Virus record (IMG/VR): IMGVR_UViG_3300003471_000084
Span: 1 to 62,083 of that record
Origin: a virus
Taxonomy: Duplodnaviria > Caudoviricetes
DNA length: 62,083 bases
Reading direction: 5' to 3' (one strand)
The notes under the pieces were generated by a model. The model saw only the letters and a program-made list of their open reading frames with translations. It was not told where the DNA came from and did no database searches. Positions within the stretch are counted from its first letter, which is position 1, and each line of letters begins with the position of its first letter. The translations under genes and the position numbers were made by a program. Shown one piece after another: positions 2,524 to 30,035 of the stretch.

Positions 2524-2943
2524 ATGGGAACCGTAATACGCCCAGAATTGTCTGGTAAAAACAAGTATTTTATTGAGAAACACCGCTACTATGAGCTGAA
2601 ACATTTTTGCTTGCAGTATTCGATTTGGAAAAAAGCCTATGCTGCCTTAGACGGTTTGAGTAATCGCCCTTTCGATTTGGCGATTCTCTCCAGAACAAAT
2701 GTCATAAGCGACCCAACTGCTAAGTGTGCTGAAGCTAAGATGTTTTATTCTGAAAGAATTGAACTGATCGAGCGAGTTGCCGTCGAAGCTGCTGAGGACC
2801 TATCGAGTTATATTTTAAGAGGCGTTACCGAAGAGGCTTCGTACGACCACCTTAAAGCTAGATTAGATATTCCATGTTGCAGAGACGTCTACTACACCTT
2901 ATACAGAAGATTCTTTTGGTTGTTAAATAAGGAGAGAAAGTGA
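2524..2943 (+). CDS. Putative ArpU/RinA-like transcriptional regulator
   Basis: Size and C-terminal YYTLYRRFFWLL segment resemble phage activators. Confidence 0.45.
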   Translation: MGTVIRPELSGKNKYFIEKHRYYELKHFCLQYSIWKKAYAALDGLSNRPFDLAILSRTNVISDPTAKCAEAKMFYSERIELIERVAVEAAEDLSSYILRGVTEEASYDHLKARLDIPCCRDVYYTLYRRFFWLLNKERK

Positions 2944-2944
2944 G

Positions 2945-3151
2945 ATGAAGATATTAGGAAAAGCTGTTCGAAAACTGTATCGATTTAATTGTCCGAATTG
3001 CGGGAGCCGGTTAGAAGCCGAGTATCAAGAGATGGAGGATATCGGCGGTAAGATTAATAAGTTCTTCTGCCCCATCTGCCGTAAAGACCGTTTTATCAAT
3101 TGGTCATCTCTAAGTAAGAAAATCGTCTATGAGGATGATGCTCCGCAATAA
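2945..3151 (+). CDS. Small zinc-finger protein
   Basis: CPNC...CPIC. Confidence 0.6.
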   Translation: MKILGKAVRKLYRFNCPNCGSRLEAEYQEMEDIGGKINKFFCPICRKDRFINWSSLSKKIVYEDDAPQ

Positions 3152-3182: not shown

Positions 3183-3374
3183 ATGGATAAATTAATAGTA
3201 AAACAAGGTATCAGAATGATCGGAGGTCTTGCTATGTTATGCATTGGTGTCCGGCTTATTTATAAGTCTGGTTGTCAACAAGGCGTACTTATAAGCGAGA
3301 TGGTTGTCGAAAAATATGAACCAGAAGCATACGAACGTTTATGTAAAATCGTTACTAATTATAAAAAGGACTGA
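3183..3374 (+). CDS. Small hypothetical protein with one hydrophobic segment
   Basis: RBS AAAGGAG before ATG 3183; followed by hairpin terminator. Confidence 0.65.
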   Translation: MDKLIVKQGIRMIGGLAMLCIGVRLIYKSGCQQGVLISEMVVEKYEPEAYERLCKIVTNYKKD

Positions 3375-3403: not shown

Positions 3404-3418
3404 CTAGGTTAGAATCCG

Positions 3419-3448
3419 TACGGAGGTAACAGAAAACTGTGTTATCTT
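3419..3448 (+). promoter_or_regulatory. Second promoter-like motif TAYGNAGGTWACRGAAA..TGnTAT (copy 1 of 3)
   Basis: Aligned gap-free copies at 28306-28335 and 56090-56119; ends in an extended -10-like element. Confidence 0.55.
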
Positions 3449-3510
3449 GATATATGGAAAAATCCCGGGTGGGAAAATTTGAGAAAACTTTTTAAAAAGG
3501 AGGTTGTGCT

Positions 3511-5094: not shown

Positions 5095-5241
5095 ATGAAT
5101 AAGACGAAACTGATGTTAAAATGGCAAATGTTTATTGGTATGGCTAAGAAAAGAGGCGCTACCGAGGAGGAATTGTCCGTTTTAGTAAAAGCGGCTGATT
5201 TGATCAGAAAATATTGTCCCGAAATAAAAGAGGAGTCCTAA
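5095..5241 (+). CDS. Small hypothetical protein
   Basis: Between promoter motif 5053 and terminator 5229. Confidence 0.55.
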   Translation: MNKTKLMLKWQMFIGMAKKRGATEEELSVLVKAADLIRKYCPEIKEES

Positions 5242-5258
5242 CAAGGGCTCTTTCTTTT
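5229..5258 (+). terminator. Terminator, 27 bp identical to 7891-7917
   Basis: AGAGGAGTCCTAACAAGGGCTCTTTCT hairpin plus T tract. Confidence 0.75.
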
Positions 5259-5307
5259 ACGCTAAAATAACAACCTCTATTATGAAAACAATTTAGGAGG
5301 TAATGTT

Positions 5308-5484
5308 ATGAAAATCACCGATATGGTTATATCCGCTATTTTGAAGAAGGGTATTTTATACGAAGCTAGGAATGTAGACACAGATGTTGAAATTCCAATG
5401 GTTATAGAAAATCAGGAACGCAAAATTAAGATTAATATTAAATGTGAACACATGACACTGAGGATTGAAAAGGATGATAAGTAG
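5308..5484 (+). CDS. 58-aa hypothetical protein (MKITDMVISAILKKG...), not in ORF track
   Basis: RBS AGGAGG; between promoter motif 5260 and hairpin 5481-5506. Confidence 0.7.
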   Translation: MKITDMVISAILKKGILYEARNVDTDVEIPMVIENQERKIKINIKCEHMTLRIEKDDK

Positions 5485-5537
5485 GAGGCTTAGGCCTCTT
5501 ACTTTTGCATTTACGCGAAACTTACAAGGACTATTAT

Positions 5538-5616
5538 GAGAAACAGTTAGCTCAGTGGTAAGAGCGCAACACAACCGTTGAGGTCACGGGTTCGAATCCC
5601 GTACAGTTTCTCACCA
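5538..5616 (+). ncRNA. Atypical tRNA-like RNA (10-bp acceptor stem, 14-nt anticodon arm, encoded CCA)
   Basis: D arm GCTC-AGTGGTAA-GAGC; T arm ACGGG-TTCGAAT-CCCGT; 3' ACCA; anticodon arm CAAC-ACAACC-GTTG. Confidence 0.8.
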
Positions 5617-5666
5617 ACTTCTGGAGCTTACAAAGGCTCTTTAATTTTATGAAAGGAGACAGATAC

Positions 5667-6902
5667 ATGGAGAAGCTAATCGAAAAGCTTAACGCTGCAT
5701 CCAGAGCTTATTATAGCGGAACAGGCGAAATCATGTCAGACAAAGAGTTTGATACTCTATATGATGAGTTGAAAAAGCTGGAACATGAGACAGGAATAGT
5801 CTTACCAAATAGCCCGACACGAAATGTTGGGTATGAAGTTGTGTCTTCACTTTCAAAAACGCAACATGAGTATCCTTCCCTGTCTCTGGACAAGACCAAA
5901 GACCGGGATGACATGGTTCGTTGGCTTGGAGATCATCAAGGGGTTTTGTCTTGGAAATTAGATGGTTTAACTGTCATTCTGACTTACGATAACGGTAAGC
6001 TGGTAAAAGCTGCAACTCGTGGTGACGGAAATATTGGCGAGAACATCATCCACAATGCGCTATATTTCAAAGGCGTCCCCCATCGTATTGAGGATAAACG
6101 CCATATTGTTATTCGTGGCGAAGCTGTTATCCAACACGATACGTTTGAACGCATCAATGAATCCCTACCAGGCGATAAGCAATATAAGAATCCTCGAAGC
6201 ATGGTTTCGGGAGCAACAAGACTTCTTGATTCAAAGAAATCTTCCACATACGAAATAATCTTTATCCCCTTCGATTTGGTTAACGCTAGAGAGCTTGGGT
6301 TTGATTGTGTCGTAGAGAGTTTGATGCATATTTCCAGTATTGGAATGACACCTGTCGATTGGACGCCTGTCCGTGATAAGGATATTTCCGAGATTATTGA
6401 CCTCAAAGAACAAGAGGTGAAATTTTTTCCATATTCTACGGACGGCTTGGTTATAGTGTTCGATGATTTGTCTATCTGTGAAAAACTCGGAGCAACAGGT
6501 AAACATCCAAGATATGCAAAAGCTTTTAAATGGCCTGATACTCTTAAAACTACTGTTCTTCGAGGAGTTGATTGGTCAGTGGCAAAGAGCGGATTAATTA
6601 GCCCCGTTGCTATATTTGATCCGGTGGAACTTGAAGGAACTACTGTCAGAAGAGCCGGACTCCATAATCTTAGCATCATGCAAGAGCTAGGTCTCGGAAT
6701 CGGTGACCATATTAAAGTTTACAAAGCCAATATGATAATTCCTCAGATTTATGAGGATGTCGAGAAGACAACCAACATCCCTATTCCAACCGTATGCCCA
6801 GCGTGCGGTTCAGAGATAGAACGTCGAATTGGTGCAAATGGGAGGTCGGAATTCCTATATTGCATAAACAAGTCTTGCTCAGCGAAAGGAGAAAATAAAT
6901 GA
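5667..6902 (+). CDS. ligA: NAD-dependent DNA ligase, short form without HhH/BRCT
   Basis: AYY...SDKEFD (domain Ia), KLDG adenylation motif, TRGDG, OB fold, C-x2-C...C-x4-C zinc finger at the C-terminus. Confidence 0.9.
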   Translation: MEKLIEKLNAASRAYYSGTGEIMSDKEFDTLYDELKKLEHETGIVLPNSPTRNVGYEVVSSLSKTQHEYPSLSLDKTKDRDDMVRWLGDHQGVLSWKLDGLTVILTYDNGKLVKAATRGDGNIGENIIHNALYFKGVPHRIEDKRHIVIRGEAVIQHDTFERINESLPGDKQYKNPRSMVSGATRLLDSKKSSTYEIIFIPFDLVNARELGFDCVVESLMHISSIGMTPVDWTPVRDKDISEIIDLKEQEVKFFPYSTDGLVIVFDDLSICEKLGATGKHPRYAKAFKWPDTLKTTVLRGVDWSVAKSGLISPVAIFDPVELEGTTVRRAGLHNLSIMQELGLGIGDHIKVYKANMIIPQIYEDVEKTTNIPIPTVCPACGSEIERRIGANGRSEFLYCINKSCSAKGENK

Positions 6903-7684
6903 AAGGAATGCAAAAACTGTTCTACAGATCGACGCTATATTTTAAGCGTCATACTTCTACCATCCTAACCTGCATTGGTGCGGCCGGGGTGGTAGCAACT
7001 GCCGTAATGGCGGTAAAGGCGACTCCAAAGGCTATTCATCTTTTGGAGGAGGCTACAGACGAAAAAGGTGAAGAACTCACCAAACTGGAGGTTGTCTGTG
7101 TGGCAGGTCCGGTTTATATTCCGGCAGCCGCTGTTGGACTATCGACTATAGTCTGTATATTTGGGGCGAATGTCCTGAACCATCGGAATCAGGCAACATT
7201 GACAAGTGCCTATGCTATGTTGGACCAATCATTCAAACGATATCGAGAGGCTGCTAAGTCGGTCTACGGCGAAGATGCCGACTCTCGAATTAGGGCCGAA
7301 GTTGCTAAAAAGATTTCTGTTTATGACCCAGCATTCGGATATTCTGTCTTGAATGAGGATGCAGAGGAAAATGAAAGATTGTTCTATGACAGTTTCTCTC
7401 AGCGATATTTCTCATCGACGATGGCCTCGGTATTAAACGCTCAATACCATTTGAATCGAAACTTCGCTTTACGTGGTTGGGTTGATGTCAACGAGTTTTA
7501 TGAGTTTCTTGGACTCGAAGAGATCAATGGATGTGACGCCATTGGATGGTCGAGCGATGAGATGCTCGAAGGTGGGTTAATGCCTTGGGTTGATTTCAAC
7601 AATGAACTCGTCAAGATGGACGACGGGTTGGAGTGTTATATCGTATCGCCCTGTTGGGAACCGACCGTAATCGCCGTTGAATAA
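6899..7684 (+). CDS. DUF6353-like phage protein, paralog 1
   Basis: KRHTSTILTCIGAAGVVATAVMAVKATPK and NEFYEFLG motifs shared with 8949 and 10964. Confidence 0.75.
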   Translation: MKGMQKLFYRSTLYFKRHTSTILTCIGAAGVVATAVMAVKATPKAIHLLEEATDEKGEELTKLEVVCVAGPVYIPAAAVGLSTIVCIFGANVLNHRNQATLTSAYAMLDQSFKRYREAAKSVYGEDADSRIRAEVAKKISVYDPAFGYSVLNEDAEENERLFYDSFSQRYFSSTMASVLNAQYHLNRNFALRGWVDVNEFYEFLGLEEINGCDAIGWSSDEMLEGGLMPWVDFNNELVKMDDGLECYIVSPCWEPTVIAVE

Positions 7685-8948: not shown

Positions 8949-9710
8949 ATGGGCAAATTTAACATATCAAACATTGCTAAAAGTGTACGGACGGCAATGA
9001 AAAAACATAGTCCGGAGATTCTTACTGGCATTGGGGTTGCTGGTATGATCACCACCGCTGTACTGGCGGTAAGAGCTACGCCAAAAGCCCTTATTCTCAT
9101 TGAAGAGAAAAAAGATGAGCTGGAAGTGGACGAGCTTACACCTGTCGAAACGGTCAAGGCTGCGTGGCCTTGTTATATTCCGGCGGCTATCACTGGCGTT
9201 CTATCAACAGCTTGCCTTATCGGTGCAAGCTCTGTAAATGTTCGACGAAACGCTGCGCTAGCAACTGCCTATACTCTTTCCGAGTCCGCTCTCAAGACCT
9301 ATCAGGAAAAGGTTATCGAAACGATCGGTGAGAAAAAGGAGCAGGATGTTAGGGACGCCGTAGCCAAGGATCATGTTACAAGAAATCCGGTTCGCAGCAA
9401 CGAAGTCATAATAACCGAGAGGGGTAATACGCTCTGCTTGGATGTTCTTTCTAAGCGATATTTCAGATCCGATATCGACAAATTGAAAAAGGCTGAGAAT
9501 GAACTTAACCGTCAGATGAGAAACGATATGTTTATATCACTCAATGAGTTCTATGACGAACTTGGGTTAGACCACATCGATATAGGTGACGATTTTGGAT
9601 GGGATATCGATAAGGGGTATATCGAGTTGGATTTCAGCTCGCAGCTTGCTTCTGATGGAACTCCGTGCCTTGTCATAGGACATAGTAATCGACCAGATTA
9701 TCGTCGCTGA
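8949..9710 (+). CDS. DUF6353-like phage protein, paralog 2
   Basis: KKHSPEILTGIGVAG...LNEFYDELG. Confidence 0.75.
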   Translation: MGKFNISNIAKSVRTAMKKHSPEILTGIGVAGMITTAVLAVRATPKALILIEEKKDELEVDELTPVETVKAAWPCYIPAAITGVLSTACLIGASSVNVRRNAALATAYTLSESALKTYQEKVIETIGEKKEQDVRDAVAKDHVTRNPVRSNEVIITERGNTLCLDVLSKRYFRSDIDKLKKAENELNRQMRNDMFISLNEFYDELGLDHIDIGDDFGWDIDKGYIELDFSSQLASDGTPCLVIGHSNRPDYRR

Positions 9711-10963: not shown

Positions 10964-11893
10964 ATGAAAACAGCAGGTATTATGAATAGCGTTAGCAAGA
11001 CCTTTAACAAGGTCGGCTTCCAGCTTAAAAAACATAGCCCGGAGATTTTAGTCATTGCGGGCGTTGTTGGTGTTGTTACCAGTGCCGTTATGGCTTGTAA
11101 GGCTACCACCAAGGTAAGCGAAATTCTGGACCAGACCAAGGAAGACGTCGATAAGATTCACGGAGTTCTGGCTGATGAATCCTTGAGCGAAGAGTACACC
11201 ATCGAAGATAGCAGAAAAGATTTAGCGGTTGTTTACGCCCAGACAGGTATCAAGCTGGTGAAGCTTTACGGTCCTTCGGTGCTGCTCGGTGCCCTATCGA
11301 TTACTGGAATTCTGGCATCCAACAATATTCTTCGCAAGAGGAATGTGGCTCTGGCGGCGGCATATGCAACCATTGACAAAGGTTTCAAAGAGTACAGAAG
11401 CCGCGTAGTCGAGCGTTTTGGTGAAGAAATTGACCGTGAGCTGAAATACAACATTAAAGCCAAGAAGATCGAGGAAATTGTCGTTGACGAAAACGGCAAG
11501 GAAAAGAAGGTCAAGAGCACTATCAACGTGGCTGACCCTAACACTTACAGCGACTACGCTCGTTTCTTTGACGATGGATGCAAGTATTGGGAGAAAAATT
11601 CAGAATCTAATCTGTTTTTCCTTAAATCAGAACAGAACTTCGCCAATGACCGCCTCAGAGCGAGGGGTTATTTGTTCTTGAACGAAGTCTACGAACGACT
11701 TGGTATTCCGACAACGAAGGCTGGTCAGATTGTCGGTTGGGTATATAATCCCGATCAGCCCAACGGTGATAACTACGTTGATTTCGGAATCTATGATATT
11801 TTCAAAGAGAAGGCTCGTGATTTTGTAAACGGTTACGAGCGGTCAATTCTTCTTGACTTCAACGTTGATGGTAACATCCTGGACTTGATGTAA
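10964..11893 (+). CDS. DUF6353-like phage protein, paralog 3
   Basis: KKHSPEILVIAGVVG...LNEVYERLG...VGW. Confidence 0.75.
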   Translation: MKTAGIMNSVSKTFNKVGFQLKKHSPEILVIAGVVGVVTSAVMACKATTKVSEILDQTKEDVDKIHGVLADESLSEEYTIEDSRKDLAVVYAQTGIKLVKLYGPSVLLGALSITGILASNNILRKRNVALAAAYATIDKGFKEYRSRVVERFGEEIDRELKYNIKAKKIEEIVVDENGKEKKVKSTINVADPNTYSDYARFFDDGCKYWEKNSESNLFFLKSEQNFANDRLRARGYLFLNEVYERLGIPTTKAGQIVGWVYNPDQPNGDNYVDFGIYDIFKEKARDFVNGYERSILLDFNVDGNILDLM

Positions 11894-26105: not shown

Positions 26106-28103
26106 ATGGACAATGTTTTAAACTTTCAAGAACTGATTGATGGCTATGTACAGCTTAACGACTGGCGGGTTAAAGAGAATTCTACAGTGAGCTACTCAGT
26201 AGGCGGCCTTATTCTCTCAAACTCTGGCGCAGTCACCGCTAACTATTGGCTGTCGAACGTTTATGATAAAGAAATTGCGGACGCGCATCGAAACGCTGCA
26301 CTTCATTTGCATGACCTGTCCATGTTGACTGGTTATTGCGCCGGTTGGAGTTTGAAGCAGCTTATTCAGGAGGGTCTTGGCGGTGTCGCAAGTAAAATCT
26401 CGTCAACTCCGGCAAGTCATCTGTCTACGCTCTGCAATCAAATGGTTAACTTCATCGGCATTTTGCAGAATGAATGGGCTGGAGCACAAGCTTTCTCTTC
26501 CTTTGACACTTATCTTTCACCTTTTGTCAAGATTGATAAGCTTACTCAAAAGGAGATTAAGCAGTGCATCCAGTCTTTTGTCTTCGGTATCAACACCCCA
26601 TCACGCTGGGGAACTCAGGCTCCTTTCTGTAACATCACTTTGGATTGGACGGTCCCGAATGACTTGAAGCATCTCCCAGCTATCGTTGGCGGACGAGAGA
26701 TGGACTTTACTTATGGCGATTGCCAGAATGAAATGGACATGGTCAACAAAGCCTTCATAGAGATTATGATTGAGGGTGACGCCAACGGCCGGGGTTTTCA
26801 ATATCCTATTCCCACTTACTCCATTACTAAAGACTTTGACTGGGGTGAAACCGAGAACAACAAACTCCTTTTTGAAATGACAGCGAAATATGGCACTCCC
26901 TATTTCTCCAACTACGTCAATTCTGATATGGAACCGAGCGATGTTCGCTCCATGTGCTGCCGCCTGAGACTCGACTTGCGTGAACTTCGCAAAAAATCCG
27001 GTGGATTCTTCGGCTCAGGCGAGTCTACTGGTTCTGTTGGAGTGGTCACTATCAACTTGCCGAGAATCGCATATTTGGCTAAGAACGAACATGACTTCTA
27101 TGCGAAGTTGAACGAGTTGATGGATGTTGCGGCTCGCTCCCTCAAGGTGAAACGTACATTTATAACGCAGCTTCTTGAAGCTGGTCTATATCCTTACACT
27201 CGGCAGTACCTCGGCACGTTCAACAACCACTTCTCCACTATCGGTCTGGTTGGTATGAATGAGACCGGGCTCAACGCTAACTGGCTGCGTAAGGATTTGT
27301 CCACTCCAGAGGTTCGGAAGTTTGCTAAGGATGTTCTCAATCACATGAGGGAACGCCTAAGCGACTATCAAGAGCAGTATGGTGACCTTTACAACCTGGA
27401 GGCGACACCGGCCGAGTCTACAGCCTATCGCTTTGCAAAGTCGGATAAGAAACAATACCCGGACATCATCACTGCGAATGAAGACGGTACTCCTTACTAT
27501 ACCAACTCCAGCCATCTCCCTGTCGGGTATACGGACGATATATTTGCAGCCCTCGATATTCAGGACGGTCTTCAGACTTTATACACCTCTGGGACCGTAT
27601 TTCATGCTTTCCTTGGTGAGCAACTTTCTGATTGGAGGCAGGCTGCCCACTTAGTTCGCAAGATTGCTGAGAATTATAAGTTGCCGTATTACACCCTGTC
27701 TCCCACCTACTCCATCTGTAAGCATCACGGCTATCTGAATGGTAAAGCTTCGAATTGTCCGGTTTGTGGCGAGAAAACCGAAATCTACAGCCGTATCACT
27801 GGTTATTATCGTCCGGTTCAGAATTGGAATGACGGTAAGGTGCAGGAATTTGAGGATCGACAGACATATACGGCAACTCAGACGCTTATGTTAATCGGAA
27901 CTAACACCTGTCCAAAGTGTAAGCAAGCGGAGAAGATTTTAAACGATGCTGGAATTACCTTTACAAAACTTTTAGCCGAAGATAATGCCGAGCTCGTATC
28001 TAGGCTTGGAATCAGACAGGCGCCTACTTTAGTAGACGAAAAAAACAAATATATAGGACTTAGTGAAATTTATAACTTTGTTTCGGAGGTGAATGAAAAA
28101 TGA
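26106..28103 (+). CDS. nrdD: Anaerobic ribonucleoside-triphosphate reductase with C-terminal glutaredoxin-like domain
   Basis: HLHDL, SMCCRL, EATPAES, YTNS, CPVC, YSRITGYY glycyl loop; C-terminal TCPKC...IRQAPTL. Confidence 0.95.
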   Translation: MDNVLNFQELIDGYVQLNDWRVKENSTVSYSVGGLILSNSGAVTANYWLSNVYDKEIADAHRNAALHLHDLSMLTGYCAGWSLKQLIQEGLGGVASKISSTPASHLSTLCNQMVNFIGILQNEWAGAQAFSSFDTYLSPFVKIDKLTQKEIKQCIQSFVFGINTPSRWGTQAPFCNITLDWTVPNDLKHLPAIVGGREMDFTYGDCQNEMDMVNKAFIEIMIEGDANGRGFQYPIPTYSITKDFDWGETENNKLLFEMTAKYGTPYFSNYVNSDMEPSDVRSMCCRLRLDLRELRKKSGGFFGSGESTGSVGVVTINLPRIAYLAKNEHDFYAKLNELMDVAARSLKVKRTFITQLLEAGLYPYTRQYLGTFNNHFSTIGLVGMNETGLNANWLRKDLSTPEVRKFAKDVLNHMRERLSDYQEQYGDLYNLEATPAESTAYRFAKSDKKQYPDIITANEDGTPYYTNSSHLPVGYTDDIFAALDIQDGLQTLYTSGTVFHAFLGEQLSDWRQAAHLVRKIAENYKLPYYTLSPTYSICKHHGYLNGKASNCPVCGEKTEIYSRITGYYRPVQNWNDGKVQEFEDRQTYTATQTLMLIGTNTCPKCKQAEKILNDAGITFTKLLAEDNAELVSRLGIRQAPTLVDEKNKYIGLSEIYNFVSEVNEK

Positions 28104-29866: not shown

Positions 29867-30035
29867 ATCAATCAATTTATAAAGCCTGTGCCTTAACCGG
29901 TATGGGCTTTTTCTTTTGTCATTTTTAGTCACGCGAAAAAAACATACCCTTTTATGAAGAGAGAAGGATAAAATGCGACCTGCATTTACTTTCTCTTTTC
30001 TTTTGTTCAAAAAATTGAAAGGAGGCTCAAGAAAA

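What the first reader, a model, noticed from the sequence alone, without database searches (positions are those of the whole stretch)
5538..5616. tRNA mimic with +3 bp acceptor stem and -3 nt anticodon arm
Seen: canonical D arm, variable loop AGGTC, T arm and encoded CCA. The acceptor stem is 10 bp (GAGAAACAGT/ACAGTTTCTC, one A-A mismatch). The anticodon arm is a 4-bp stem with a 6-nt loop ACAACC lacking U33. It has its own promoter motif and a downstream hairpin (5623-5648) and is not at the att site. Inference: not a decoding tRNA but a maintained structural mimic, perhaps a decoy for tRNA-targeting defence nucleases or a ligand for T-box, RelA or synthetase-like factors.
Basis: partly seen in the sequence, partly recalled or inferred. 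Interest (0 to 1): 0.72.

Follow-up and report, generated by a model that had tools for sequence, protein, structure and literature searches.

The report
Phage tRNA-shaped RNA without an anticodon
This temperate phage carries a tRNA-shaped RNA gene that has no usable anticodon loop and a lengthened end helix; it belongs to a large, apparently undescribed family that sits at the head of an early operon in hundreds of related phages, so it is a maintained non-decoding tRNA look-alike rather than a broken tRNA.

Summary
Window 5538-5616 folds as a cloverleaf with a 10-bp end helix (one A-A mismatch), normal D and T arms, variable loop AGGTC and a 14-nt anticodon arm (CAAC/ACAACC/GTTG). ARAGORN calls it tRNA-??? 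with a two-base anticodon; Rfam tRNA scores 49.8 bits.

It is not a one-off deletion. In 80 related phage loci picked by a neighbouring protein, 69 carry a homologous RNA at the same place. Of these, 44 have a 14-nt arm and only 5 a 17-nt arm. All four helices covary. The three extra base pairs (-1:73, -2:74, -3:75) are paired in 41 of 41 distinct sequences. The tertiary 15:48 pair covaries.

The CCA after the long helix is unique to this window (1 of 87 loci) and is probably chance.

Every copy follows a conserved phage promoter motif and is followed by a U-run or hairpin, then a ribosome-binding site.

Best reading: a non-decoding tRNA-body mimic made first from an early promoter, acting through its tRNA shape on a host tRNA-recognising factor (inferred, untested). 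Main rival: a cis-acting leader or terminator module.

No expression data, no partner and no published description were found.

The parts
5479..5504 (+). Terminator-like hairpin ending the upstream small gene (5308-5484)
   Evidence: 11 pairs, loop 4, T-rich tail. An equivalent hairpin precedes the RNA cassette in relatives.
5510..5538 (+). Conserved phage promoter/operator-like motif (TTTACGCGAAAC...TATTATG) that abuts the RNA
   Evidence: TTTACG-16-TATTAT. The same motif precedes every family member. It recurs in the window at 5256-5284 and 29932-29956 in front of protein genes. Function as a promoter is inferred, not shown.
5538..5547 (+). 5' strand of the 10-bp end helix: 3-nt extension GAG plus acceptor positions 1-7
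   Evidence: Family pair counts are: -3:75, -2:74 and -1:73 are paired in 41 of 41 distinct RNAs.
5550..5565 (+). D arm (GCTC / AGTGGTAA / GAGC) with G18 G19
   Evidence: D stem 98-99% paired in the family.
5567..5580 (+). Shortened anticodon arm: CAAC / ACAACC / GTTG (4 bp + 6 nt, or 5 bp with an A.C pair + tetraloop CAAC)
   Evidence: The 14-nt geometry occurs in 44 of 69 family RNAs. The stem covaries. It is not predicted by single-sequence folding.
5581..5585 (+). Variable loop AGGTC; C5585 (position 48) pairs with G5555 (position 15)
   Evidence: 15:48 is complementary in 34 of 42 distinct RNAs: T:A 16, G:C 12, A:T 6.
5586..5602 (+). T arm ACGGG / TTCGAAT / CCCGT
   Evidence: T stem 98-100% paired, with double changes in 4-5 of 5 pairs.
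5603..5612 (+). 3' strand of the end helix (ACAGTTT + CTC)
5613..5616 (+). ACCA after the long helix; probably a chance occurrence
   Evidence: Present. 1 of 87 parsed family loci has CCA here.
5623..5650 (+). Terminator-like hairpin and T-run after the RNA, directly followed by the ribosome-binding site of the next gene
   Evidence: 7 pairs, 5623-5640. 53 of 69 relatives instead have a T-run directly after the end helix. 69 of 69 have an SD plus start codon 21-117 nt after the helix.
5667..6902 (+). Downstream gene: short NAD-dependent DNA ligase (adenylation, OB and Zn-finger domains only); context, not shown to be functionally linked
   Evidence: Present after the RNA in only some relatives.

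Best explanation
The locus encodes a non-decoding, tRNA-shaped small RNA. It belongs to a large family that sits directly behind a conserved phage promoter motif at the head of an early, accessory-gene operon in a big group of temperate tailed phages.

Shown here:
- The RNA keeps the full tRNA body: acceptor and T stack, D arm, and elbow contacts including the 15:48 pair.
- Both working ends are altered. The anticodon loop is replaced by a short hairpin cap. The acceptor helix is lengthened by three base pairs that bury position 1 and the discriminator.

Inferred:
- The RNA is transcribed from the G(s) right after TATTAT, so it starts at the foot of the helix.
- It is released by termination at the helix plus U-run, or here at the hairpin 5623-5640.
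- It is neither charged nor used on the ribosome.
- It works in trans by shape mimicry. It occupies a host factor that recognises the tRNA body, most plausibly a tRNA-targeting defence enzyme or a tRNA-processing enzyme, as soon as transcription begins and before any phage protein is made.
- The short arm would tune which factor is bound.
For: - Identity as a tRNA-shaped RNA: ARAGORN tRNA-??? with a two-base anticodon; Rfam tRNA 49.8 bits.
- Family and fixed position: homologues lie between the same gene clusters in 76 loci. In a sample of 80 loci picked by the neighbouring protein c2 (527 relatives found, best 80 kept), my covariance model hits 69, all on the same strand downstream of c2.
- Selection on structure: 93.0% of cells are paired against 80.4% in shuffles, and 17 of 24 pairs show double changes, on 41 distinct RNAs. 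In the other set the T stem is 100% paired with 5 of 5 covarying pairs. 15:48 is complementary in 34 of 42.
- Non-decoding: 44 of 69 arms are 14 nt, 5 of 69 are 17 nt, and the rest are 15-34 nt.
- ARAGORN on 42 representatives gives 16 two-base and 1 four-base 'anticodons', 14 no call, and 11 ordinary calls. The ordinary calls include Stop(tta) x3 and SeC(tca). The Stop(tta) phage shows no stop-codon recoding.
- Near-identical RNAs differ in the middle of the loop: ttc/tac, tta/tca, aat/tat.
- Extension: -1:73, -2:74 and -3:75 are paired in 41 of 41.
- Independent cassette: in L203 the RNA has its own promoter and terminator, and a second promoter motif serves the next gene.
- Context: the neighbours are small early or accessory genes (DUF6353, DUF6273, acidic and zinc-ribbon proteins) in a phage with integrase, terminase and portal.
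- Each of five related phage records holds only this one tRNA-family match; one of them holds a second.
Against: - No expression evidence. RNA-library contigs laid on the window cover 5240-5453 and 5814-5959 but not the RNA.
- No binding partner was identified, and no defence system is linked to it.
- The transcription start is inferred only from motif position.
- Every one of 69 copies is followed within 21-117 nt by an SD and start codon, mostly with no room for a promoter. This fits a cis-acting leader as well.
- One relative (L310) keeps only promoter, end helix and U-run. Four near-identical loci (L298-L300, L304) keep the helix design around a non-tRNA interior. So the tRNA body is dispensable in some lineages.
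- A few members have canonical loops (Thr-tgt, Glu-ttc, Val-tac) and may still decode.
- The alignment used was fitted to the model, which favours the modelled pairs.
- This window's arm is a singleton, and single-sequence folding does not predict its stem.
Confidence: 0.42

Rival explanations
1. Cis-acting leader module. The tRNA-shaped fold at the very 5' end of the early transcript works in cis. Its end helix plus U-run would be an attenuator or terminator, and/or a 5'-terminal structure or RNase P/Z processing signal (like plant mitochondrial t-elements or mascRNA). Either would set the level, ends or stability of the downstream mRNA. The small RNA itself would be a by-product.
For: - 53 of 69 copies have the U-run directly after the end helix, and 69 of 69 have an SD and start codon 21-117 nt further on.
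- The element sits at one fixed place right behind the promoter motif in 69 of 80 sampled relatives.
- L310 keeps only promoter, helix and U-run. L298-L300 and L304 keep the helix around another interior.
- Host tRNA genes in likely host clades also end in a T-run without CCA, with position -1 pairing to 73 in the 3 I looked at.
- Only acceptor, T and D features, which are what RNase P and Z read (textbook knowledge), are strongly conserved.
Against: - A plain hairpin would do the job, yet the elbow contacts and the 15:48 pair are kept by covariation across the family.
- In L203 the RNA has its own terminator and the next gene its own promoter motif.
- One short arm sequence (CCAC-ACTTCC-GTGG, 20 of 69) is conserved across subfamilies whose acceptor and T stems differ. 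A pure processing signal would not require that.
- A 3-bp paired leader is expected to hinder RNase P and Z (recalled knowledge, not tested).
Confidence: 0.3
2. Leader-encoded antisense regulator. As with C4 RNA of P1/P7 or CI RNA of P4, a small RNA cut from the leader of an early operon would pair through its variable loop with a target in the same operon or in a competing phage. This would set immunity or heteroimmunity.
For: - Same architecture: regulated-looking promoter, structured small RNA, then early genes.
- The loop and arm differ between otherwise close relatives.
- The promoter motif contains a palindrome (TTTCGCGAAA) in several relatives, suggesting a repressor site.
- CI and C4 are RNase P substrates made from leaders (passage read in PMC5499578).
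Against: - A search for the complement of the loop plus 2 stem bases on each side (10 nt, up to 2 mismatches) within 1.7 kb downstream and 0.7 kb upstream found no target that covaries with the loop. There was none at all for the window. The recurrent site at about +605 in one subfamily mismatches the commonest loop.
- No Rfam C4 match appeared at E up to 10.
- CI and C4 lack a T loop, whereas this family keeps it.
- A 6-nt loop gives too little signal for the search to be conclusive.
Confidence: 0.08
3. Decaying tRNA gene. A once-functional phage tRNA (Ile, Thr or similar) would have lost three bases of its anticodon arm in this phage and be on its way out.
For: - The nearest relatives by flank (L126; contig in run X1) have a 17-nt arm read as tRNA-Ile(tat).
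- This copy has singleton features: arm sequence, extra A in the D loop, A-A mismatch, CCA.
- Some lineages have clearly degenerate versions (L003/L305, L336, L314, L323, L298 group).
Against: - The 14-nt geometry is the family norm (44 of 69) and its stem covaries.
- The window's stems are all intact Watson-Crick except one mismatch.
- Rfam scores 49.8 bits.
- The change relative to the 17-nt relatives is a clustered replacement, not a 3-nt deletion.
Confidence: 0.06
4. Unusual decoder. The scaffold would carry 2-, 3- or 4-base 'anticodons' (6-, 7-, 8-nt loops) and act on the ribosome as a frameshift-promoting, missense or suppressor tRNA that gates translation of particular phage genes.
For: - ARAGORN reads two-base (16 of 42), four-base (1 of 42), Stop(tta) (3) and SeC(tca) (1) anticodons on one scaffold.
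- Doublet decoding by tRNAs is documented (titles and abstracts seen for PMC12202706 and PMC6920855).
Against: - The stem is also one pair short, or the loop is only a tetraloop. U33 is missing in the window and in most short loops.
- One acceptor stem with C73 serves all 'anticodons'.
- There is no sign of stop-codon recoding in the window or in the Stop(tta) phage. Frames of at least 150 codons cover 0.92 and 0.93 of the DNA under the standard code.
- No split genes were noticed in the ORF list, but this was not tested systematically.
Confidence: 0.04

Closest known systems
Canonical tRNA (Rfam RF00005), including phage-encoded tRNAs used to replace host tRNAs cut by defence nucleases (PARIS, retron-Eco7; abstracts seen for PMC11464382, PMC11555353, PMC10264068)
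   Same: Cloverleaf, D and T arms, elbow nucleotides, 15:48 pair, a single gene in a phage, and an Rfam score above threshold.
   Different: 14-nt anticodon arm with no U33 and no 7-nt loop. The acceptor helix is extended by 3 conserved pairs. The discriminator is C and is paired. There is no conserved CCA. One scaffold carries many loop contents. Those published phage tRNAs keep a working anticodon.
C4 RNA of phages P1/P7 and CI RNA of P4 (leader-encoded small RNAs, RNase P substrates)
   Same: A small structured RNA encoded right after an early promoter, upstream of the genes of the same operon.
   Different: Those RNAs are hairpin-like and lack a T-loop equivalent (passage in PMC5499578). 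Their action by antisense pairing is recalled knowledge. No Rfam match and no covarying target were found here.
tRNA-like processing elements: plant mitochondrial t-elements (abstract of PMC1920247) and mascRNA of MALAT1 (recalled)
   Same: A tRNA-shaped fold without decoding function next to an mRNA. The anticodon arm is reduced and the acceptor, T and D features are kept.
   Different: Those are eukaryotic or organellar and act as RNase P/Z cleavage signals. Here the 5' leader is only about 3 nt and is paired, and processing has not been tested.
Bacterial Y RNA (YrlA) tRNA-like module (recalled from Chen et al. 2014 and Wang et al. 2018; not read here)
   Same: A non-decoding RNA that mimics the tRNA body, also known from some phages.
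   Different: As I recall, in YrlA the 5'/3' helix takes the place of the anticodon stem and binds Ro/Rsr. Here the 5'/3' helix is the acceptor stem, stacked on the T arm. No Rfam family other than tRNA reached threshold. I did not search for an Rsr gene.
Streptococcus sRNA SpF41 (Rfam RF02435)
   Same: The Rfam consensus shows a long end helix, a T arm with GGUUCGAAUCC and a terminator. This was the second-best match.
   Different: 25.2 bits against a gathering score of 52, so it is not a member. The function of SpF41 is unknown to me.

Membership tests
tRNA (RF00005), decoding | Covariance-model score above the curated threshold | tested here: met
   49.8 bits against 29.
tRNA (RF00005), decoding | 5-bp anticodon stem and 7-nt loop with U33, a 3-base anticodon and purine 37 | tested here: not met
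   4 bp + 6 nt (ACAACC) with no U33. ARAGORN gives a two-base anticodon. 44 of 69 relatives have the same geometry.
tRNA (RF00005), decoding | 7-bp acceptor stem with a free discriminator and a 3' CCA (encoded or added) | tested here: inconclusive
   The helix continues for 3 more conserved pairs (41 of 41). The encoded CCA is unique to the window. Mature ends are unknown.
tRNA (RF00005), decoding | Aminoacylation and use on the ribosome | not testable with these tools
   Needs charging assays and polysome or ribosome association.
Suppressor tRNA of a recoded phage | Stop-reading anticodon together with in-frame stops in phage genes | tested here: not met
   The window has no 3-base anticodon. 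Frames of at least 150 codons cover 0.92 of the window and 0.93 of the Stop(tta) relative under the standard code.
C4 / CI leader-encoded antisense RNA | Match to the Rfam model; loop complementary to a target in the same operon | tested here: not met
   No match at E up to 10 in 5470-5670. No covarying complement within 1.7 kb. That test is weak for a 6-nt loop.
C4 / CI leader-encoded antisense RNA | Encoded in the leader of an early operon behind a regulated promoter | tested here: met
   Promoter motif abuts the RNA, with an SD and start 21-117 nt after it in 69 of 69. Regulation is inferred from the palindrome only.
tmRNA | tRNA-like domain plus tag reading frame | tested here: not met
   ARAGORN reports no tmRNA. 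The Rfam permuted-tmRNA hit is 8.1 bits against 47.
SpF41 sRNA (RF02435) | Score above the gathering threshold | tested here: not met
   25.2 bits against 52.
Y RNA / YrlA | End helix in place of the anticodon stem; Ro/Rsr partner gene | tested here: inconclusive
   Here the topology is tRNA-like, with the end helix adjoining the T arm. No Rfam Y-RNA family matched. Rsr was not searched for in the window.
t-element / mascRNA type processing signal | Cleavage by RNase P and RNase Z that defines neighbouring RNA ends | not testable with these tools
   Needs end mapping or in-vitro cleavage.

The most novel reading that the evidence does not exclude
The family would be an RNA-only immune antagonist: a tRNA body with both working ends blunted (capped anticodon arm, buried acceptor end). 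It would be made as the very first product of the early promoter. It would jam host enzymes that recognise tRNA shape, such as anticodon nucleases or acceptor-end-modifying toxins, without needing translation. The short, diversifying arm would be the specificity dial in an arms race.
Probability: 0.25. Interest if true: 0.85.

Novelty: new variant of a known kind. Interest (0 to 1): 0.68.

Why it matters
Phage tRNAs are currently discussed as codon supplements or as replacements for host tRNAs destroyed by defence nucleases. This would be a different case.

It is a widespread, strongly conserved tRNA-shaped RNA that cannot decode. It is found in at least 69 of 80 sampled relatives, in a phage group with more than 500 hits in the viral collection. 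It always sits as the first transcribed element of an early operon.

If it acts in trans, it would be a bacterial-virus counterpart of eukaryotic and viral tRNA mimics, and possibly an RNA-based anti-defence factor. If it acts in cis, it would be a new kind of tRNA-derived leader or terminator in phage gene control.

Either way, gene finders report it as an undetermined or mis-typed tRNA (Stop, SeC, Ile, His and others). That pollutes tRNA and recoding surveys of phage genomes.

Tried and rejected
- Relatives through the ligase gene in viral contigs: ARAGORN and Rfam found no tRNA in 10 loci. Reading L003 by eye showed a degenerate homologue at the same place.
- Exact 24-nt arm pattern in viral contigs: 0 hits.
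- D-arm pattern: mostly ordinary tRNA-Met-like genes of unrelated phages.
- GenBank phage records: no match to the window cassette or to a common-type cassette.
- 401 genomes sampled from the class of a likely host relative: pattern found in 0 of 401, so no host was identified.
- My covariance model R1 is not specific. It hits every ordinary tRNA in five bacterial genomes, tRNA-Phe best, so I used it only inside syntenic phage loci.
- Sequencing runs: no run holds more than about 0.3 of the sampled words. RNA-library contigs do not cover the RNA, which says nothing about expression.
- Antisense-target search: no covarying target.
- Idea that the loop pairs with the downstream ribosome-binding site: checked by eye on three subfamilies, with no covariation.
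- Idea that loop triplets are codon mimics for G34/Q34 tRNAs: dropped after the wider sample added loops that do not fit.
- Stop-codon recoding in the Stop(tta) relative: no signal.
- Standard sigma-70 reading of TATTAT as a -10 box with a start 7 nt downstream: rejected, because it would remove helix positions that covary. The same motif is also followed at once by an SD in front of protein genes. Host tRNA genes use ordinary TTGACA-17-TATAAT promoters with leaders of about 20-40 nt.
- Literature searches found no description of this family. Supplements were not available, and subscription journals are not covered.

Full report
**What is there**

The window is one complete viral record of 62,083 bp, classed as a provirus. 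It carries an integrase, a large terminase, a portal and an anaerobic ribonucleotide reductase, so it is a temperate tailed phage.

- a 10-bp end helix, GAGAAACAGT / ACAGTTTCTC, with one A-A mismatch
- linker TA
- a normal D arm
- a 14-nt anticodon arm (CAAC, loop ACAACC, GTTG)
- variable loop AGGTC
- a normal T arm
- A, then CCA

ARAGORN reports it as the only tRNA-type gene in the window, tRNA-??? with a two-base anticodon. Rfam gives tRNA at 49.8 bits as the only family above threshold. A wider Rfam scan of 5470-5670 adds only sub-threshold matches. The best of these is the Streptococcus sRNA SpF41, at 25.2 bits against 52.

The cassette has three flanking elements:
- an upstream terminator-like hairpin (5479-5504)
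- a promoter-like motif that abuts the RNA (5510-5538)
- a downstream terminator-like hairpin (5623-5640)

The ribosome-binding site of a short NAD-dependent ligase gene follows directly.

The single sequence folds better than all 200 shuffles (z -3.06). The program predicts the end helix, D stem and T stem but not the CAAC/GTTG stem.

**It is one member of a large family**

Homologous RNAs lie at the same place in relatives found in three ways:
- through the ligase gene
- through two sequence motifs scanned over the viral collection, giving 64 and 58 stretches
- through the conserved neighbouring protein c2, which does not depend on the RNA sequence (570 stretches matched, 527 confirmed relatives, best 80 kept)

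In 76 loci the gene order around the RNA is the same. Upstream lie small zinc-ribbon and unknown genes. Downstream lie an acidic small protein, DUF6353 paralogues and DUF6273.

In the c2-based sample, a covariance model built from 33 family members hits 69 of 80 loci. All hits are on the coding strand downstream of c2, and they comprise 41 distinct sequences.

The 11 loci without a hit break down as follows:
- Two are cut off soon after c2 (L313, L361), and L341 is also shorter downstream.
- One keeps only promoter, a simple hairpin made of the two end-helix strands, and the U-run (L310).
- Four near-identical loci keep the same helix design around a different interior (L298-L300, L304).
- One has neither promoter nor RNA (L315).
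- Two I did not resolve (L322, L332).

**The structure is under selection**

On the c2-based alignment of 41 distinct rows:
- 93.0% of cells form standard pairs, against 80.4% in shuffles.
- 17 of 24 pairs show changes on both sides.
- Slid controls give 42-54% pairing.
- The short anticodon stem is 91.9% paired, with double changes in all 4 pairs.
- The T stem is 98% paired.

This alignment was fitted to the model, which favours the modelled pairs. The independent MAFFT alignment of the motif-based set gives the same picture for the end helix, D stem and T stem: 94.7% paired, and the T stem 100% paired with 5 of 5 covarying pairs.

The three extra pairs at the foot of the acceptor stem are paired in every distinct sequence:
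- -3:75: G-C 29, G-U 9, A-U 3
- -2:74: A-U 41
- -1:73: G-C 40, A-U 1

A fourth pair (-4:76) is unpaired in 21 of 41.

Inside the canonical stem, 2:71 covaries (A-U 17, G-C 14, G-U 9). Positions 3:70 and 5:68 are often mismatched.

The tertiary 15:48 pair is complementary in 34 of 42 distinct RNAs (T:A 16, G:C 12, A:T 6). The T loop is TTCGART or TTCAAAT in nearly all. The L-shaped tRNA fold therefore appears to be kept, not merely a set of hairpins.

**The anticodon arm does not look like a decoder**

In the c2-based sample the arm lengths are as follows (I corrected one 17-nt arm that was cut short in parsing):

| Arm length | RNAs (of 69) |
|---|---|
| 14 nt | 44 |
| 15 nt | 1 |
| 16 nt | 4 |
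| 17 nt | 5 |
| 18 nt | 1 |
| 19 nt | 10 |
| longer | 3 |
| unclassifiable | 1 |

The commonest arm, CCAC-ACTTCC-GTGG (20 of 69), recurs in subfamilies whose acceptor and T stems differ. The 14-nt arm can also be read as 5 bp (last pair A-U, G-U or A.C) plus a tetraloop.

ARAGORN on 42 representatives gives:
- 16 two-base 'anticodons'
- 1 four-base 'anticodon'
- 14 no call
- 11 ordinary calls: Ile-tat, Thr-tgt x2, Stop-tta x3, SeC-tca, His-atg, Glu-ttc, Val-tac, Gly-tcc

Near-identical RNAs differ in the middle of the loop: ttc/tac, tta/tca, aat/tat. A working tRNA would not tolerate that on one unchanged acceptor stem with a C discriminator.

The phage with the Stop(tta) call shows no stop-codon recoding, and neither does the window. 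A few members with fully canonical loops (Thr-tgt, Glu-ttc, Val-tac) may still decode.

**Is the window's copy a recent deletion?**

Its closest relatives by flanking DNA have a 17-nt arm that ARAGORN reads as tRNA-Ile(tat). These are L126 and a contig in DNA run X1 that is about 96-97% identical in the flanks.

The difference is 13 substitutions plus small indels clustered at 5561-5594. It is not a 3-nt deletion.

The window's loop ACAACC resembles the loops AAAACC and AAAACCA, which sit on quite different stems in L206 and in a 16-locus subfamily.

The window's exact arm, its D loop with an extra A, and the CCA are singletons. The CCA occurs in 1 of 87 parsed loci, so I treat it as chance.

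**Transcription context**

The motif upstream (T-rich, CGCRAAA, about 10 nt, TATTATG) precedes every family member. It recurs in the window before two protein genes, at 5256-5284 and 29932-29956, where a ribosome-binding site follows at once. L203 shows the same arrangement. In several relatives it contains the palindrome TTTCGCGAAA.

Helix positions -3 to +2 covary, and the SD in the protein-gene versions starts 2-10 nt after TATTATG. So transcription probably starts at the G(s) right after TATTAT. This is an inference. It does not fit a standard -10 box. Host tRNA genes in likely host clades use ordinary TTGACA-17-TATAAT promoters with leaders of about 20-40 nt.

After the RNA, 53 of 69 copies have a U-run directly behind the end helix, and most of the rest have a separate hairpin as here. 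All 69 have an SD and start codon 21-117 nt further on. Host tRNA genes that I inspected also lack CCA and end in a T-run.

**Host and occurrence**

The ligase's nearest cellular relatives are Clostridia, at 47-64% identity. The RNA motif was not found in 401 sampled genomes of that class or in GenBank phage records.

Runs holding related DNA are labelled anaerobic digester, wastewater and marine metagenomes. None holds more than about 0.3 of the sampled words.

RNA-library contigs cover neighbouring genes but not the RNA. That is uninformative for a small structured RNA.

**How it most likely works**

Shown:
- a conserved tRNA body
- a non-canonical, variable anticodon arm
- a conserved 3-bp extension of the acceptor helix
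- a fixed position as the first element behind an early promoter motif

Inferred:
- The RNA starts at the foot of the helix.
- It is released at the U-run or hairpin.
- It is not charged or used for decoding.
- It acts through its shape.

I put about 0.42 on a trans-acting mimic of the tRNA body. It would occupy a host tRNA-recognising factor, with a tRNA-targeting defence enzyme the most attractive target. An RNA works without translation, and the neighbours look like early accessory genes.

I put about 0.30 on a cis-acting leader, terminator or processing module. The universal downstream SD, the hairpin-only variant L310 and the helix-only conservation in the L298 group favour this reading.

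Smaller weights go to three other readings:
- a C4/CI-like antisense regulator (no covarying target found; C4 and CI lack a T loop)
- a decaying tRNA
- an unusual decoder

**Novelty**

Six literature searches returned nothing on such a family. I saw listings and abstract starts only, except for passages of PMC5499578. Rfam 15 has no model for it beyond tRNA.

I file it as a new variant of a known kind, the tRNA-like non-coding RNAs. It is not a member of the decoding tRNAs, because the anticodon-loop criterion was tested and not met.

Noticed in passing
window 5256-5284, 5510-5538, 29932-29956: A repeated promoter/operator-like motif (T-run, ACGCGAAA or ACGCTAAA, about 10 nt, T(A/T)TTATG). It is followed at once by a purine-rich start region or an SD. 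In relatives it contains the palindrome TTTCGCGAAA. It does not fit the ordinary TTGACA-17-TATAAT promoters of the host tRNA genes I looked at.
   Followed up: partly
L344, L328, L343 (about 3197-3272) and L354 (3197-3272): Family members with a 19-nt arm that ARAGORN calls tRNA-Stop(tta) and tRNA-SeC(tca). They differ by one base in the loop. The Stop(tta) phage record shows no stop-codon recoding. Such calls could mislead recoding surveys.
   Followed up: partly
L352 3805-3882 and L371 3787-3864: Two close relatives with fully canonical 7-nt loops. They differ only in the middle anticodon base (Glu-ttc versus Val-tac) on the same acceptor stem.
   Followed up: no
L310 about 3416-3500: The same promoter is followed only by a simple hairpin made of the two end-helix strands plus a U-run, then the SD. 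The tRNA body is gone.
   Followed up: partly
L298-L300, L304 (about 2940-3060); L003/L305 2845-2941; L336 3474-3557: Other structured RNAs sit in the same slot with the same purine/pyrimidine end helix. They have degenerate or replaced interiors: an altered T loop and long inserts in place of the anticodon arm. No Rfam family matched the L003 version.
   Followed up: partly
window 5667-6902: NAD-dependent DNA ligase of only about 411 aa (adenylation, OB and zinc-finger domains; no HhH or BRCT part). It lies next to the RNA in this phage and some relatives and is absent from most. Cellular relatives are 47-64% identical.
   Followed up: partly
window 6899-7684, 8949-9710, 10964-11893: Three paralogous DUF6353 proteins with an N-terminal membrane-like segment lie in the early region, interleaved with small acidic proteins and a DUF6273 protein. 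The same set occurs in nearly all relatives.
   Followed up: no
window 5561-5594 versus the contig in DNA run X1: A near-identical phage in digester metagenomes differs from the window almost only inside the D loop, anticodon arm and T stem of this RNA (13 substitutions and 3 indels). The surrounding roughly 600 bases carry scattered single changes. This suggests arm replacement or fast divergence.
   Followed up: partly
window 26106-28103: Anaerobic ribonucleotide reductase (NrdD) with a weak C-terminal glutaredoxin-like match, encoded by the phage.
   Followed up: no
L208 8-86 and 604-682: One viral contig carries two copies of the Ile(tat)-type RNA about 600 bp apart, each with its own promoter motif and terminator.
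   Followed up: no
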